A DNA stretch of 64,000 nt from a virus. Taxonomy: Duplodnaviria; Heunggongvirae; Uroviricota; Caudoviricetes. The notes beneath the pieces are model-generated. The model had not been told where the DNA came from. It worked only from the letters and a program-made list of their open reading frames with translations, and ran no database searches. The DNA is taken from positions 1 to 64,000 of the IMG/VR virus record IMGVR_UViG_3300037423_001636; one strand, written 5' to 3'. The translations under genes and the position numbers were made by a program. Positions 6,605 to 42,699 of the stretch are shown here, piece after piece (within the stretch, counting starts at the first letter, position 1; each line of letters starts with the position of its first letter).

Positions 6605-7174
6605 ATGAGCGATTCACCTTCATCCACACCTAAAGAATCACATCTAGCCGAGACTATTGTTTTAGGCCGCCGCTGGCATCTTACTGCCGGGGCCGAAGCC
6701 GCAGTCAAAGCTTTGGGAGCGCGGCTAGACATGGATGTAAAACGTGAGGCGGGTAACGCACTCCGCCACATTGGAGAGTTTTTATCTGACATCAGTCCCT
6801 CACCAACGCTCGACGTGCGGGAAGCGGATTTTGCGCGGGCCGCGCACACCTATTTACGCAAATACTGCGACGATTCGCTTACGACTCTGCTCTATCGACT
6901 GATCGCGGACGGCAAAGGCTGGGCGGTTTGGGCTGCCTTTGTTAAAGGCGCGGTTGCAAATAATCTCGATTATCATGAAGCTCAGCGTGACGCTGAGACC
7001 TATTACCACGACAACATAGATATTCCGGAGAACTGCTATATGAGGTGCGCCCTTGGCGCGTGGCCCAAAAAAGACTACGATCAGATGATCAAGTATTTTC
7101 GTAAAGACGGCTGGTTTGACTGGCTGCCGAAGAATGGCGTGTCGAAGACACCATTAGCCAAAAGCGAGCGATGA
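6605..7174 (+). CDS. hypothetical protein (leaderless)
   Basis: TTGCAT-17-TAGAGT promoter directly upstream. Confidence 0.7.
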   Translation: MSDSPSSTPKESHLAETIVLGRRWHLTAGAEAAVKALGARLDMDVKREAGNALRHIGEFLSDISPSPTLDVREADFARAAHTYLRKYCDDSLTTLLYRLIADGKGWAVWAAFVKGAVANNLDYHEAQRDAETYYHDNIDIPENCYMRCALGAWPKKDYDQMIKYFRKDGWFDWLPKNGVSKTPLAKSER

Positions 7175-15708: not shown

Positions 15709-16062
15709 ATGCAACGAGCACCAACACAAGCGCAAACCACCCCGCACGCTACTTCCAACGGCTATCGCATCCGTTTTCCAAAGGATAGTCAGTTGGCCAC
15801 AATTCGCGGCTGGAACGGCAAATCATACGCCATGTCGGTTTCGATCTACGAAATCATTTCCGATGAGACGAATTGGGGCTGCAAGATTCCCGGCTACAAT
15901 GTGGGCGACAAGGTGAGGATGATTTCCGGAGTGGAGGAAAGTGAGCGTCTCGGGCATCATCCGACAAGAATGTGGCGGACTGTTTGCCGAATTGGAGCGG
16001 AGCATGCTGAGCACGTGGGGTTTCCCGTGACGGCACTGCGTCTGGTGAATGGGGGTGCGTGA
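15709..16062 (+). CDS. hypothetical protein (leaderless)
   Basis: ATG 52 nt after box at 15657. Confidence 0.7.
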   Translation: MQRAPTQAQTTPHATSNGYRIRFPKDSQLATIRGWNGKSYAMSVSIYEIISDETNWGCKIPGYNVGDKVRMISGVEESERLGHHPTRMWRTVCRIGAEHAEHVGFPVTALRLVNGGA

Positions 16063-16589
16063 TGGCTGGCGGGGGCAATCAGACCACCTACGACGAGGGC
16101 ACGCGCCGAGACGCTGAAGAAGTGCGCCGATTTGCGGCCCACATGGGCGTCGAACTCCCCGAACGCTTTGACGGCGACATGCACCCGGCCGCGCAGTGTA
16201 TGAATGGGGCTCTGATGGATATCATTCAGCTGACGAATGCCCTTAGGAATATCGCGTTGACGCTGGGCGTAGATGACTACGAAAAGGCGCGAATGGTGGT
16301 TGAATCGGCTTTGGCCAGTCCATCAATCCTTCAACCTGCCGAAGCAGGCAATCTCTCCGTGAATACGCCCACAAATTCCTCTTCACTCGGCATCACTATC
16401 CCGGACAACGATCCCCGACCCCAGAAGCACGGCGGCCTGCGGCCAATCAAAGGATTGAAGCCCCGCTGCATAGACCCTTCCCATGAGCCACCCACACACA
16501 TAGTGATCCCGCCCGGCTATGAATACGAGCATGTGTGTCCGAGCTGTGGATTTACGATCGTTCTGTGGGGGCACGATGTCACCTTGTAA
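16062..16589 (+). CDS. hypothetical protein with C-terminal Zn ribbon
   Basis: C..P.HEPP.H...H.CPSCG. Confidence 0.6.
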   Translation: MAGGGNQTTYDEGTRRDAEEVRRFAAHMGVELPERFDGDMHPAAQCMNGALMDIIQLTNALRNIALTLGVDDYEKARMVVESALASPSILQPAEAGNLSVNTPTNSSSLGITIPDNDPRPQKHGGLRPIKGLKPRCIDPSHEPPTHIVIPPGYEYEHVCPSCGFTIVLWGHDVTL

Positions 16590-16611
16590 GGCTTGATTTC
16601 TGTTTTTTTAC

Positions 16612-16748
16612 GCTCTTGTATCACAAAACGGTCTAGGGGAATCTGTTCCGGCCGGATGGTCCTCCCTGAGCAGTCCACTGCTGCGTATAGTGGGGCGCGT
16701 GACCAGCGCAGTGATTTCGCAAGGTTCGAGCCCTCGCCAAGAGCACCA
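16612..16748 (+). ncRNA. tRNA-like RNA: acceptor, D and T arms and CCA; 77-nt D-loop insertion; no anticodon arm
   Basis: GCTCTTG/CAAGAGC-A-CCA; TA; TCAC/GTGA; GCAAGG-TTCGAGC-CCTCGC. Confidence 0.75.
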
Positions 16749-16767
16749 ATTTCTTTAACATTCTCTC

Positions 16768-16796
16768 TTGACTGGCGACACAATCTGTGCTCTATT
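16768..16796 (+). promoter_or_regulatory. sigma70-like promoter for ncRNA
   Basis: TTGACT-17 bp-TCTATT with TG extension. Confidence 0.55.
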
Positions 16797-16803
16797 CGCC
16801 TCC

Positions 16804-17112
16804 AACAGGTAGGCGCATGACCGTTCCGCCACTCAAACTAGATTCAGCTCTTTTACAGGAGTAAGTTTCAACTGTATTGCATAAGCGATACCGTTGGAGC
16901 GAAGCTCCAACAACAATTCCAGCCTTTGATCCGTGCGAAAAATCTGTGGTCGTAGCCCAGTACCGCACGGGGAGGCTTACGAATGGACGGCGGTAGCGAA
17001 TTGACCTTTCTATGGGCTAAACGACAGGTCAATAGGGAGCCGCACTGGAGAGTAGCACCATCCCAGTTTCTGACCACACATACGCCCGTGGCACGTCCAA
17101 TCACTTTTTTTT
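16804..17112 (+). ncRNA. large structured ncRNA with double pseudoknot
   Basis: many perfect helices; one loop pairs with two distal segments; ends in T8. Confidence 0.7.
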
Positions 17113-17133
17113 GCCGCCCTCGGGTGCGAAAGC

Positions 17134-17219
17134 GAGCGGTGGGGGAATACGAGCGTCGGGAGAACCGACGACGAGGCGCGACTGTGTGCCTGTTTCGAAC
17201 ACTCTCACCGCTCTTTTTT
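17134..17219 (+). ncRNA. multi-branched structured RNA or terminator-like element
   Basis: 12-bp stem GAGCGGTGGGGG/CTCTCACCGCTC enclosing two hairpins, then T6. Confidence 0.55.
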
Positions 17220-17252
17220 GACAAATCCATTTCCTCCAGTCATGGTTGACCT

Positions 17253-17350
17253 ACAGGCTCTTCAAGGACCGTTTGTGACTAAACGGTCTCTGGCAAGCTG
17301 GACCGGAGCCGTCCTCACACGAGGACCAGCCATGGCTGGGGGATTTCTTT
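17253..17350 (+). ncRNA. small structured RNA with its own promoter
   Basis: TTGACA(17218)-17-CATGGT; helices GGCTC/GAGCC, GACCGTTT/AAACGGTC, GTCCTC/GAGGAC. Confidence 0.55.
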
Positions 17351-17410
17351 GCGGTATAGGGAAAACTCCCCATTGACGAGCCTCTGCTAGTCTGGTAGAG
17401 TGTGCGTCTT

Positions 17411-29069: not shown

Positions 29070-29504
29070 ATGAATCCAACGCGACTAGGCATTAATAAAT
29101 GCGGAACCGGCCTCTGGGCATCTGAGCCAGTTCGCCGTCAGACATACGCCGAAGTTGAGTGGGTGACTTGGGACAAGGCGAAACCGTTCACAAGTAAGCT
29201 CTCTGCCGAGGATGTAATCCGAGGTTGCAATTTGCAGGACTGTGAAGTTTTACCGCTCGCAGACCCGAATCCCCGACCGCGCCTGAGCGAAACGACTATG
29301 GACAACGATACAGCCAAGGAAGCCGACCGCCGACTTTTGCGCATGAAGGCGCTTTACCATACTTGCATGTCGCAGGCGTGCTTTCGGCGCGAAGAAGCGG
29401 CGAAGGAAACCGAGGTTGACGAAGCGACCGCACTGCGGCGCGAGGCAACCGTGTTCGAGGAGTGTGCGGGCTGGCTCAAGGCCGCAACCGACGACTGCCG
29501 CTAA
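29070..29504 (+). CDS. hypothetical protein, possibly two fused micro-genes
   Basis: internal degenerate motif followed by ATG at 29298. Confidence 0.6.
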   Translation: MNPTRLGINKCGTGLWASEPVRRQTYAEVEWVTWDKAKPFTSKLSAEDVIRGCNLQDCEVLPLADPNPRPRLSETTMDNDTAKEADRRLLRMKALYHTCMSQACFRREEAAKETEVDEATALRREATVFEECAGWLKAATDDCR

Positions 29505-41723: not shown

Positions 41724-42272
41724 ATGAAATTAACAGCGCAGGCACAGCTTGAGACGTTCTATGCGTTCAAACGCATGCACCGGAATGATCTTATTCATAT
41801 CGCCGAACAGGCAGGGTTGGAACCGACTCACTACAACACGCACGAGAAACGGGCGGCTGGGGTAACTGTGTTTTATTATCGCTCGGTGGCGCTGTTCGCG
41901 AGCACAAAGAAAGAGATCAACAAACCATTCGGCCAATGACCATCGGCCAAATAGCTGAGGCAGCTAAAGCGGCGGGCGTGGACTCTGCGAAACTCACGCT
42001 CGCGCTACATGAGCCGGTTTATTTCTATCAGTGGCGCTATGGCACTGGTCACGTTACGTTCGGAAACCATTGCACAGAAACAGAATGGCTGGCACAAGTG
42101 ACAAAACAGTTGAAAACCAACCCCGGTTCTCCCATCAACCTGATTGAAAAGAAGGGGCCATTCGTCGAATGAAACACGATCACCACTCTTACGATAATAA
42201 GGAGAACCCCCTATAGACAAGGGACGCAAACTCTGATATTCTCTTTCCTGTTCGATTGATAGTTCAATTTAC

Positions 42273-42515
42273 GCGCGATTAGCTCAATTGGTTCCTGTCG
42301 GCGCTCCGCAAGGAGATACGGCAGGGGTGATAACCGACGAAGACTAGACGAGAGACCCCGATGCTAAGTCTCCATTGCAAGGGATACGACCCGGAGGGCA
42401 CTCAGTCTAGCTAGTAAGCGGCGACTACCTAGAGCGTCATCGGTGGAGCGATCCACCATACACGATGAAGGTTGCCACAGGTCTGAAACGACTGGTTCGA
42501 GTCCGGCATCGCGCA
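42273..42515 (+). ncRNA. tRNA-Val(TAC)-derived RNA with three insertions (138 nt in D-loop, hairpin in anticodon loop, 17 nt in T-stem)
   Basis: GCGCGAT/ATCGCGC-A; GCTC-AATTGGT[..]A-GAGC; TCATC[..]TACAC-GATGA; AGGTT-GCC[..]GG-TTCGAGT-CCGGC. Confidence 0.8.
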
Positions 42516-42625: not shown

Positions 42626-42699
42626 GCGGGGATAGCTCAATTGGTAGAGCACGTCTAAACATGGCGTGGATAGAGGTTCGAATCCTTTTCCCTGCACCA
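42626..42699 (+). tRNA. atypical tRNA (apparent anticodon AAC, Val-like; A33; position 26 missing)
   Basis: GCGGGGA/TCCCTGC-A-CCA, GCTC-AATTGGTA-GAGC, ACGTC-TAAACAT-GGCGT, AGAGG-TTCGAAT-CCTTT. Confidence 0.75.

What the first reader, a model, noticed from the sequence alone, without database searches (positions are those of the whole stretch)
16612..16748. Second tRNA shell with an insertion at the same D-loop position and no anticodon arm
Seen: acceptor GCTCTTG/CAAGAGC plus A-CCA, T8A9, D-stem TCAC/GTGA and T-loop TTCGAGC are intact. A 77-nt folded insert (16633-16709; AGGGGA/TCCCT, TCCGGCCGGA, CCACTG/TAGTGG) sits after D-loop GGT and before the A-D-stem 3' strand, exactly where the 42273 element has its insert. 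The anticodon and variable arms are reduced to TTTC. In both elements the D-loop GGT can pair with an ACC near the end of the insert. Inference: two RNAs of unrelated sequence 26 kb apart share one architecture, which suggests a class of phage tRNA mimics. They cannot decode but keep the elbow and CCA end, so they could act as decoys for anticodon nucleases, synthetases, EF-Tu or RelA, or as scaffolds.
Basis: partly seen in the sequence, partly recalled or inferred. Interest (0 to 1): 0.85.

Follow-up and report, generated by a model that had tools for sequence, protein, structure and literature searches.

The report
Phage tRNA-Arg-like gene, oversized extra domain
A soil jumbo phage carries a 137-base tRNA-type gene that does contain an anticodon arm (CCG, arginine) plus a roughly 60-base extra domain, so it is an oversized tRNA-like RNA and not an anticodon-less shell; with no relatives found, its fold and role stay unproven.

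Summary
The shell is real. It has a 7-bp acceptor stem, U8/A9, a GG-containing D loop, a canonical TTCGA T arm and an encoded ACCA. Its ends at 16612 and 16748 carry the same flank motifs (TTTAC before, ATTT after the CCA) as the phage's own tRNA genes.

The claim "no anticodon arm" does not hold. The "insert" opens with an alternative D-stem partner (GGGG), A26, and a 5-bp stem with a 7-nt loop (U33, CCG, G37) in exact tRNA register. ARAGORN calls tRNA-Arg(CCG) only when part of 16661-16723 is deleted.

My best reading is a tRNA-Arg(CCG)-like RNA with a 61-nt domain at the variable position.

No homologue was found in phages, IMG/VR, 42 related records, a metagenome pattern scan or bacterial genomes, so covariation cannot decide between the folds.

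The 42273 element does have a true D-loop insert, so "one shared architecture" remains unproven.

This scan has repeatedly noted phage tRNA-like genes with giant variable arms on other DNA.

The parts
16607..16611 (+). 5' leader motif TTTAC directly before the mature 5' end
   Evidence: The same T-rich leader stands before 26 of 31 array tRNAs.
16612..16618 (+). Acceptor stem, 5' strand GCTCTTG
   Evidence: Seven Watson-Crick pairs with 16738-16744.
16619..16620 (+). U8 and A9 connector
   Evidence: Read from the sequence. Aligned to U8/A9 by covariance model R1.
16621..16639 (+). D arm in the cloverleaf reading: TCAC, an 11-nt loop AAAACGGTCTA (A14, G18 G19, A21), then GGGG
   Evidence: Drawn this way by ARAGORN after a variable-region deletion and aligned this way by R1. 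The stem has 3 of 4 pairs, with one A.G mismatch.
16640..16640 (+). A26 spacer
16641..16657 (+). Anticodon arm ATCTG / TTCCGGC / CGGAT. The anticodon CCG (Arg) is at 16648-16650, with U33 and G37.
   Evidence: All 13 tRNA calls in the deletion scan were Arg(CCG). An arm this good in this register appears in 2.5e-4 of 200,000 shuffles.
16658..16718 (+). 61-nt extra domain at the variable-loop position. Candidate hairpins are CCACTG-7-TAGTGG (16675-16693) and GCGC-GTGACCA-GCGC (16695-16709).
   Evidence: Deletions that restore a tRNA call all lie within 16661-16723. The fold is not more stable than shuffles (z +0.62). No copy of it exists elsewhere in the genome.
16710..16714 (+).
   Evidence: Read from the sequence. 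Chance of A+GTGA within 6 nt of the T stem is 3.6e-3, and of any GTGA in the domain 0.20. The fold constrained this way gives -43.0 kcal/mol against -31.4 for the cloverleaf.
16719..16737 (+). T arm GCAAGG / TTCGAGC / CCTCGC, with a canonical T54-U55-C56-G57-A58 loop
   Evidence: There is one A.C mismatch. The stem is either 6 bp or 5 bp plus an extra C before the acceptor strand.
16738..16748 (+). Acceptor 3' strand CAAGAGC, discriminator A, encoded CCA
   Evidence: Almost all array tRNAs of this phage also encode CCA.
16749..16753 (+). 3' trailer ATTTC directly after the CCA
   Evidence: A trailer of the form [AT]TT[TCA] follows 26 of 31 array tRNAs.
16059..16589 (+). Upstream 176-aa ORF ending 22 nt before the element; probably co-transcribed with it
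   Evidence: ORF list. No promoter-like or terminator-like site lies between the ORF and the element. The protein has no homologue among 5.8 billion proteins.
16755..16784 (+). Promoter-like site just downstream, likely the start of the next transcription unit
   Evidence: Consensus scan, 9 of 12 matches.

Best explanation
Positions 16612-16748 are a phage tRNA-type gene.

Expression and maturation (inferred): the RNA is probably read through from the upstream ORF. It is then cut by the host tRNA-maturation enzymes (RNase P at 16612, 3' trimming to the encoded CCA at 16748), like the phage's roughly 30 other tRNAs.

Fold (best supported, not proven): a tRNA-Arg(CCG)-like cloverleaf with
- a 7-bp acceptor stem,
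- a D arm with G18/G19,
- a 5-bp anticodon stem and a 7-nt loop U-U-CCG-G-C,
- a canonical T arm,
- a 61-nt extra domain emerging where the variable loop sits. This is the face of the L-shape where class II tRNAs carry their long arm.

Function (inferred): no 61-nt self-splicing intron type is known, and the phage encodes no tRNA-splicing endonuclease, so the domain is most likely retained. The default role is a supplementary arginine tRNA for CGG, with an added domain whose partner is unknown. CGG is the phage's second most used Arg codon, and no other phage tRNA reads it.
For: Shown:
- The shell and its exact ends match this phage's tRNA gene format. TTTAC stands before the gene and ATTT after the CCA. 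Both motifs occur at 22 of 31 array tRNAs, with a joint background of 8e-4.
- Of 3,255 single deletions, only 13 gave an ARAGORN tRNA call. All 13 lie within 16661-16723 and all give Arg(CCG).
- Under canonical tRNA rules (D stem at least 3 of 4 pairs, GG in the D loop, N26, a 5-bp stem, U33, R37), the arm arises in 2.5e-4 of 200,000 shuffles of the 'insert'.
- A class I tRNA covariance model built from a related phage's tRNAs aligns 16612-16657 as acceptor, D arm and anticodon arm.
- This phage already lengthens the variable arm of class I tRNAs: Lys-UUU is 91 nt, Ala-UGC 89 nt and a CAU tRNA 88 nt.
- The phage's Arg tRNAs are GCG, UCU and CCU only. CGG makes up 19% of Arg codons, 11.4 per thousand codons.
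- The overlapping ORFs have no Pfam or PHROG match.
- The phage has no tRNA-splicing endonuclease, and Rfam finds no intron or ribozyme.
Against: - No homologue was found anywhere, so there is no covariation and no sign of purifying selection.
- After the deletion the ARAGORN call is marginal. It passes at threshold 100 but not at 102, and 13 of 110 shuffled inserts also give some tRNA call.
- The cloverleaf has an A.G mismatch in the D stem and an A.C mismatch in the T stem. It also has an extra base between the T stem and the acceptor stem. That gives a 7/6 branch of 13 bp instead of 12, which could hinder EF-Tu or ribosome use.
Neither fold is the minimum-free-energy structure.
- The extra domain shows no thermodynamic signal.
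- Position 20 is U, not the A20 used by E. coli ArgRS (own knowledge).
- The same genome has a proven D-loop insert at 42273.
Confidence: 0.4

Rival explanations
1. Same cloverleaf-plus-domain fold, but the RNA does not decode. It is a tRNA mimic made early in infection. Its canonical elbow and CCA end engage host tRNA-handling or tRNA-attacking proteins, or the phage's own Ro60. The 61-nt domain serves as a handle.
For: - The phage's decoding set has a different elbow: 28 of 31 array tRNAs have G55 and most lack G18/G19. All three tRNA-type genes in the early region keep the canonical TTC/GG elbow (about 0.002 by my hypergeometric count).
- Two of those three carry large inserts.
- The phage also encodes Ro60/TROVE and an RNA ligase inside the tRNA array, the kind of toolkit seen in tRNA-centred conflicts.
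- The 7/6 acceptor branch and the stem mismatches argue against efficient decoding.
- The relative G001 also has odd canonical-elbow tRNA-like genes in its early region.
Against: - No partner, motif or homologue has been identified.
- The Y-RNA Ro-binding motif GNCGAAN0-1G (PMC4201824) is absent; only GGUCC is present.
- The anticodon loop is fully canonical, which a decoy does not need.
- Canonical elbows may simply mark recently acquired genes.
- Similar decoy claims elsewhere in this scan fared poorly on later checks.
Confidence: 0.25
2. TCAC pairs with GTGA. A 77-nt, three-hairpin insert sits in the D loop after GGT, as in the 42273 element. There is no functional anticodon arm, so this is a non-decoding tRNA shell or scaffold.
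For: - TCAC/GTGA is a perfect 4-bp stem preceded by A21 and lying 4 nt before the T stem. Its chance is 3.6e-3.
- The constrained energy is -43.0 kcal/mol against -31.4 for the cloverleaf.
- The 42273 element has a genuine insert at the same D-loop position 20/21.
- A 54-nt armless tRNA shell exists at 162076-162129.
Against: - This fold requires the register-perfect anticodon stem-loop and GGGG to be accidents, at 2.5e-4.
- No D-loop deletion gives a tRNA call at the default threshold.
- The insert folds worse than its shuffles (z +1.33).
- Nearest-neighbour energy is a poor judge here: the unconstrained minimum-energy fold even breaks the T arm.
Confidence: 0.15
3. A decaying tRNA gene. A former tRNA-Arg(CCG) was disrupted by about 60 nt of inserted DNA and is now on its way to loss.
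For: - Mismatches in the D and T stems and an extra base at the T/acceptor junction.
- The inserted domain has no structural signal.
- No conservation is detectable anywhere.
- The element is absent from the syntenic early region of the relative G001.
Against: - The acceptor stem is perfect.
- The T loop, the D-loop GG, the anticodon loop, the CCA and both flank motifs are all intact.
- Working-looking array tRNAs of this phage also carry stem mismatches.
- The insert matches no repeat or mobile sequence in the genome.
Confidence: 0.15
4. The region is not an RNA gene. It is a chance resemblance in an intergenic stretch or in a small ORF.
For: Rfam and ARAGORN give no call. ORFs of 75 and 88 aa overlap the region.
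Against: The joint occurrence of the acceptor stem, T arm, NCCA end and both flank motifs is far below chance. The overlapping ORFs have no family match.
Confidence: 0.03

Closest known systems
Class II tRNAs (Leu, Ser, bacterial Tyr, Sec) and allo-tRNAs (Mukai et al. 2017, PMC5389517; review by Krahn et al. 2020, PMC7609411)
   Same: A full cloverleaf with extra RNA emerging between the anticodon arm and the T arm. The acceptor/T branch length is non-standard, as in tRNA-Sec and allo-tRNAs.
   Different: Known variable arms are single hairpins; class II arms are 'greater than 10 nucleotides' (PMC7609411) and to my knowledge stay under about 25 nt. Here the domain is 61 nt, has at least two candidate hairpins, and sits on an Arg (class I) anticodon. 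The branch here is 7/6, not 8/5, 9/4, 8/4 or 9/3.
'Enigmatic introns' in Lak megaphage tRNA genes (Devoto et al. 2019, PMC6784885)
   Same: Phage tRNA genes interrupted by tens of bases that fit no known bacterial intron class. They are found only when finders are run in a non-bacterial mode.
   Different: The Lak inserts were called as anticodon-loop introns by eukaryote-mode tRNAscan and are conserved between genomes. This insert lies at the variable position (or in the D loop under the rival fold) and has no known relative.
Element at 42273-42515 of the same window
   Same: Same genome and strand. It has a canonical TTCGA T loop and a GG D loop, a TTTAC leader, and is a tRNA-derived gene with large added RNA.
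   Different: It has an unambiguous 138-nt insert after D-loop GGT. It also has a 15-16-nt hairpin in the anticodon loop and about 17 nt at the T stem. It has no encoded CCA and has its own palindrome-box promoter at 42198. Its anticodon (UAC) duplicates an array tRNA. It shares no sequence with the 16612 element.
Bacterial Y RNAs of the YrlA type, bound by Ro60 (Chen et al. 2014, PMC4201824)
   Same: Non-decoding RNAs with a tRNA-like D/T elbow that are handled by tRNA enzymes. They are also found in phages. This phage encodes a Ro60/TROVE protein.
   Different: YrlA RNAs have their ends in a Ro-binding stem carrying GNCGAAN0-1G, and they lie within 4 kb of the Ro60 gene. This RNA ends in an acceptor stem plus CCA, lacks the motif, and lies 147 kb from the TROVE gene. 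A better Y-RNA candidate sits at about 163254-163376, directly upstream of that gene.
Phage T4 stable RNAs RNAC and RNAD
   Same: Phage-encoded stable RNAs of about 120-140 nt whose function is still unknown (PMC9697503). From my own memory, not checked here: they are encoded with the T4 tRNA genes and have tRNA-like paired ends.
   Different: No sequence relationship was tested. The T4 RNAs are late transcripts in the tRNA cluster, whereas this gene lies in the early-gene region far from the array.
Engineered aptamer-tagged tRNAs (Mukai 2020, PMC7590224) and tRNA scaffolds for RNA expression (own knowledge)
   Same: They show that a tRNA body can carry an added structured RNA and still be processed and, in some designs, remain active in translation.
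   Different: Those are artificial constructs. This element would be a natural counterpart, and its activity is untested.

Membership tests
Canonical tRNA (Rfam RF00005) | 7-bp acceptor stem, discriminator base and 3' CCA | tested here: met
   GCTCTTG/CAAGAGC gives 7 Watson-Crick pairs, followed by A and an encoded CCA.
Canonical tRNA (Rfam RF00005) | T arm: 5-bp stem, loop T54-U55-C56-R57-A58, directly abutting the acceptor strand | tested here: inconclusive
   The loop TTCGAGC and the G53-C61 pair are canonical. The stem has one A.C mismatch, and one extra C precedes the acceptor strand, giving a 6-bp stem or a bulge.
Canonical tRNA (Rfam RF00005) | U8, A14, G18 G19 and a 3-4-bp D stem | tested here: met
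   U8, A14, GG and A21 are present. The D stem is TCAC/GGGG (3 of 4 pairs) or TCAC/GTGA (4 of 4 pairs), depending on the fold.
Canonical tRNA (Rfam RF00005) | Anticodon arm: 5-bp stem, 7-nt loop, U33 and a purine at 37, one base after the D stem | tested here: met
   16641-16657 forms ATCTG-TTCCGGC-CGGAT after A26. It arises in 2.5e-4 of shuffles.
Canonical tRNA (Rfam RF00005) | Overall size and a score above the family threshold | tested here: not met
   The element is 137 nt. Rfam gives no match at E<=10 even on 149 nt alone, and ARAGORN gives no call.
Class II tRNA | A single variable-arm hairpin of limited length (under about 25 nt, from my own knowledge) on a Leu, Ser, Tyr or Sec body | tested here: not met
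   The domain is 61 nt with at least two candidate hairpins, and the anticodon is CCG (Arg).
tRNA with a group I intron | Intron in the anticodon loop with a conserved catalytic core, usually 200 nt or more | tested here: not met
   The added RNA is 61-77 nt and is not in the anticodon loop. Rfam finds no intron or ribozyme family.
Archaeal-type spliced tRNA (bulge-helix-bulge introns) | A tRNA-splicing endonuclease available to remove the intron | tested here: not met
   The phage genome has no PF01974 match, while the archaeal control genomes do. The host is unknown. Bulge-helix-bulge motifs were not modelled.
tmRNA | tRNA-like domain plus a tag reading frame and pseudoknots | tested here: not met
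   ARAGORN's tmRNA search of the window and the whole genome found none.
YrlA / Y RNA | Ro-binding motif GNCGAAN0-1G near the 5' end, ends in a long stem, gene within 4 kb of Ro60 | tested here: not met
   The motif is absent (only GGUCC at 16658-62). The ends form an acceptor stem. The TROVE gene lies at 163453-165018, 147 kb away.
   This is true for 42273. For 16612 it holds only if TCAC pairs with GTGA and not with GGGG. The statistics favour the other fold and the energy favours this one.
   A canonical anticodon stem-loop is present at 16641-16657.

The most novel reading that the evidence does not exclude
Soil jumbo phages of this lineage may run two tRNA designs.
- The first is a decoding set with a rewired A18/G55-type elbow, which host enzymes and defences that read the universal T-psi-C elbow would not see.
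- The second is a small set of early-expressed, canonical-elbow tRNA bodies that carry inserted RNA domains. These are the 16612 and 42273 elements here and odd tRNA-like genes in relatives. They would act as baits or adaptors for host tRNA-targeting defences or for the phage's own Ro60/RNA-ligase repair module.
Under this reading the 16612 RNA is one such natural 'tRNA-scaffold' effector.
Probability: 0.15. Interest if true: 0.75.

Novelty: new variant of a known kind. Interest (0 to 1): 0.45.

Why it matters
If the RNA is made and retained at 137 nt, it extends how much extra RNA a tRNA body can carry in nature. It would be a class I (Arg) tRNA with a 61-nt domain, about three times the longest known variable arms.

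It would also add to a growing, still undescribed set of phage tRNA-like genes that standard annotation misses. That matters for counting phage tRNAs, for codon-supply arguments, and for the idea that phages use tRNA bodies as carriers for other RNA modules.

The single sequence here cannot settle the fold or the function. The immediate value is therefore a corrected description and a clear experiment that separates the two folds.

Tried and rejected
Homologue hunt (all empty):
- blastn against 50,697 phage records.
- Exact 5' and 3' halves in IMG/VR.
- Upstream ORF by pattern search in IMG/VR and in 5.8 billion proteins, which returned only the query itself.
- BLAST of the element in 42 related IMG/VR records.
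- Two-anchor pattern in JGI metagenomes: 5 hits, none related.
- Anticodon arm plus T loop pattern: in bacterial genomes, 2 hits, both in coding sequence; in IMG/VR, no hit.
- This scan's own index: no look-alike.

Expression:
- Only one holder was listed, a soil-metagenome DNA run.

Structure:
- Minimum-energy folding and z-scores gave no signal for the whole element or for its parts.
- ARAGORN calls on deleted versions are only marginally better than on shuffles, where 13 of 110 gave some call.
- My own reading, a D-loop insert plus GCGC-GTGACCA-GCGC as a Val(GAC) anticodon arm, appears only at a lowered threshold and has C37. I rejected it.
- Covariance model R1 could not span 137 nt, so it gave only a partial parse of the 5' half.

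Other ideas rejected:
- tmRNA.
- Known ribozyme or intron families.
- A repeat or mobile insert.
- Y RNA or Ro60 partner: the motif is not met.
- Archaeal-type splicing: no endonuclease is encoded.
- A phage ArgRS or CCA-adding enzyme that might pair with the RNA: none is encoded.
- Comparison with a tRNA-Arg(CCG) from related phages: none exists among the relatives' tRNA arrays examined (G001, G004, G005).

Full report
CONTEXT. The window is the first 64 kb of a complete 205,168-bp phage genome with direct terminal repeats. Its DNA was found in one soil-metagenome run. The phage has no close cultured relative: its terminase is at most 28% identical to anything in the phage collection. The nearest complete relative in IMG/VR is G001 (190,671 bp). 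Its terminase is 50% identical, and the two genomes are collinear over about 90 kb of structural and replication genes. The early regions share only a few genes. The element is single-copy.

THE OBSERVATION. ARAGORN and Rfam miss the element, even when Rfam is given only 149 nt at E<=10. The shell is nevertheless not chance.
- I scanned the whole genome for a T loop, a T stem and a perfect 7-bp acceptor stem. The only hits ending in NCCA were the tRNAs at 42626 and 168854 and this element.
- The two ends carry the 'cassette' format of this phage's own tRNA genes. A T-rich leader ending in TTTAC precedes the 5' end, and ATTT follows the CCA. Both motifs occur at 22 of 31 array tRNAs, and their joint background frequency is 8e-4.
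- This supports 16612 and 16748 as the mature ends, made by the usual tRNA-processing route. That last step is inference.
- The overlapping ORFs match no protein family.

The 77-nt 'insert' is not a well-folded module. It folds worse than its dinucleotide shuffles (z +1.33), and its pieces give z +0.2 to +0.6. More importantly, it begins with a canonical tRNA continuation.
- After the D loop AAAACGGTCTA comes GGGG, which pairs with TCAC in 3 of 4 positions.
- Then comes A26, then ATCTG / TTCCGGC / CGGAT. That is a 5-bp stem with a 7-nt loop carrying U33, anticodon CCG and G37.
- I deleted every possible stretch of 30-99 nt (3,255 variants). ARAGORN called a tRNA in only 13, all with the deletion inside 16661-16723 and all tRNA-Arg(CCG).
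- A class I tRNA covariance model built from five tRNAs of a related phage aligned 16612-16657 as acceptor, D arm and anticodon arm. It could not span the full 137 nt.
- So the RNA has an anticodon arm. The extra RNA is most simply a 61-nt domain at the variable-loop position (16658-16718).

HOW STRONG IS THAT? It is only moderately strong, and I want to be plain about it.
- The ARAGORN call is marginal. It is lost at threshold 102, and 13 of 110 shuffled inserts also give some call after some deletion.
- A rule-based test is sharper. A D-stem partner, GG in the D loop, N26, a 5-bp stem, U33 and R37 in register arise in 2.5e-4 of 200,000 shuffles.
Any GTGA at all in the domain arises in 20%.
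- If only one of the two pairings is functional, this favours the cloverleaf by roughly 14-fold or more. The criteria were set after seeing the sequence.
The unconstrained optimum (-48.1, z -0.53) breaks even the T arm, which shows how little these energies say here.
- The cloverleaf also has an A.G mismatch in the D stem, an A.C mismatch in the T stem, and an extra base at the T/acceptor junction, giving a 7/6 branch.

PRECEDENTS INSIDE THE GENOME POINT BOTH WAYS.
- For a variable-position domain: the phage's own class I tRNAs Lys-UUU (91 nt), Ala-UGC (89 nt) and a CAU tRNA (88 nt) carry long variable arms. G001 has an early-region tRNA-Ile(UAU)-like gene with an extra hairpin at that position.
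- For a D-loop insert: the 42273 element becomes tRNA-Val(UAC) with a 15-nt anticodon-loop insert once 42293-42430 alone is removed. It becomes a clean 72-nt cloverleaf with a 6-nt anticodon loop once three inserts are removed. No alternative register exists there.
The claim that both share one architecture rests on choosing the less likely fold for 16612.

NO COMPARATIVE EVIDENCE. I searched for relatives through DNA, flanking proteins, related phage records, a metagenome pattern scan and bacterial genomes, and found none. Related phages carry no tRNA-Arg(CCG) to compare with.

FUNCTION. Nothing suggests removal of the domain.
- It matches no intron or ribozyme family, and at 61 nt it is far shorter than group I tRNA introns, usually 200 nt or more (own knowledge).
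- The phage has no tRNA-splicing endonuclease.
- The default reading is a retained extra domain on a tRNA that can still present CCG.
- That would fill a gap. The phage's Arg tRNAs are GCG, UCU and CCU, while CGG is its second most used Arg codon (19%, 11.4 per thousand).
- I give this reading 0.40.

A non-decoding mimic with the same fold gets 0.25.
- It draws on a real contrast. 28 of 31 array tRNAs have G55 and mostly lack G18/G19. All three early-region tRNA-type genes keep the canonical elbow.
- The phage also encodes a Ro60/TROVE protein and an RNA ligase within the array.
- However, the Ro-binding motif of bacterial Y RNAs is absent from the element (PMC4201824).
- A better Y-RNA candidate lies right upstream of the TROVE gene.

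COMPARISON WITH WHAT IS KNOWN.
- The closest described things are class II tRNAs and allo-tRNAs (PMC5389517, PMC7609411) and the unexplained 'introns' of Lak megaphage tRNAs (PMC6784885).
- Functionally, the closest are Y RNAs of the YrlA type and the still-unexplained T4 RNAC/RNAD (PMC9697503).
- None is a family this element can be filed under.
- Earlier notes of this scan describe several phage tRNA-like genes with 68-95-nt variable-position domains on other DNA. Another reader of this same stretch proposed tRNA-Arg(CCG) with a 60-nt variable arm, which my tests support.
- It is therefore a new variant of a kind already seen repeatedly in this scan, without family data of its own.

VERDICT. 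This is a real tRNA-type gene, best described as tRNA-Arg(CCG)-like with a 61-nt extra domain. Its fold and function are unproven. Interest is moderate (0.45).

Noticed in passing
G000 genome 156823-168948 (outside the window; loci L002-L022): The phage's array of about 31 tRNAs has a rewired elbow. 28 of 31 T loops read N-G-C instead of T-T-C (TGC 16, AGC 5, CGC 3, GGC 2, TGG 2), and most D loops lack GG. Almost all encode CCA. ARAGORN finds only 18 of them at its default threshold. The same swap has been reported several times by this scan in other soil jumbo phages and in Verrucomicrobia.
   Followed up: partly
G000 genome 156823-156913, 158169-158257, 161273-161360: The class I tRNAs Lys-UUU (91 nt), Ala-UGC (89 nt) and a CAU tRNA (88 nt) carry class II-like long variable arms.
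   Followed up: no
G000 genome 162076-162129: A 54-nt 'mini' tRNA shell sits inside the array. It has acceptor GACTCCA/TGGAGTC, T arm GAGGG-TGAGAAT-CCCTT and GCCA, with only 19 nt where the D and anticodon arms should be. It carries the same ATTT flanks as its neighbours.
   Followed up: no
G000 genome 163254-163376 and 163453-165018 (L128 558-680 and 757-2322): A 521-aa ORF with a Ro60/TROVE domain lies inside the tRNA array. Directly upstream is a ~123-nt RNA candidate closed by a 9-bp terminal stem, with an internal canonical GAGAG-TTCGAAC-CTCTC T arm (fold z -1.98). It looks like a YrlA-type Y RNA, although Rfam gives no match.
   Followed up: partly
G000 genome 166729-167172: An RNA ligase domain (PF09414, E 8e-35) lies in a 350-aa ORF between tRNA-Arg genes. 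No RtcB, CCA-adding enzyme, ArgRS or tRNA-splicing endonuclease was found in the phage.
   Followed up: partly
window 42273-42515: This is a tRNA-Val(UAC)-like gene with three added pieces: 138 nt after D-loop GGT, a 15-16-nt hairpin in the anticodon loop, and about 17 nt at the T stem. It has no encoded CCA. A palindrome-box early promoter module at 42198-42213 lies about 60 nt upstream, so it appears to have its own early promoter. An ordinary Val(UAC) tRNA already exists at 159696.
   Followed up: partly
window 42626-42699: A well-formed tRNA-Val carries anticodon AAC. An A34 is unusual for bacterial Val tRNAs. It has no spacer base between the D stem and the anticodon stem, and it has a canonical elbow, unlike the array tRNAs.
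   Followed up: no
window 17357-55932: The palindromic box TRRGG-N6-CCYYA occurs 29 times, always on the + strand, where 0.5 are expected. None lies upstream of 17357, so the 16612 element sits just outside this regulon.
   Followed up: partly
G001 (IMGVR_UViG_3300036770_006434) 187779-187877(-) and 6968-7066(-): The relative's early region holds two canonical-elbow tRNA-like genes. One is tRNA-Ile(UAU)-like with an extra hairpin whose loop shows GAU. The other has a GTCCCGGGAC hairpin inside the D loop, an 8-bp anticodon stem with a TCCAAAA loop, and no CCA.
   Followed up: partly
L123 (G002 29240-29500) and L124 (G003 66900-67160): Two more distant jumbo phages (terminase 34-35% identical) share a ~100-nt shell. 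It has an acceptor-like stem, a CGCGGG-TTCGACT-CCCGC T arm and ACCA, with an AT-rich interior that has no recognisable D or anticodon arm.
   Followed up: no
window 16790-17400: About 600 nt downstream of the element have no ORF with a family match (the 88-aa and 120-aa ORFs were tested). Other readers flagged this stretch as a large structured RNA. Rfam finds nothing there.
   Followed up: partly
terminase homologues P0002, P0004, P0005 and many others: Many terminase relatives are 900-1,900 aa with the match split into two or three stretches, against 636 aa here. This suggests inteins or other insertions in the terminase genes of this lineage.
   Followed up: no
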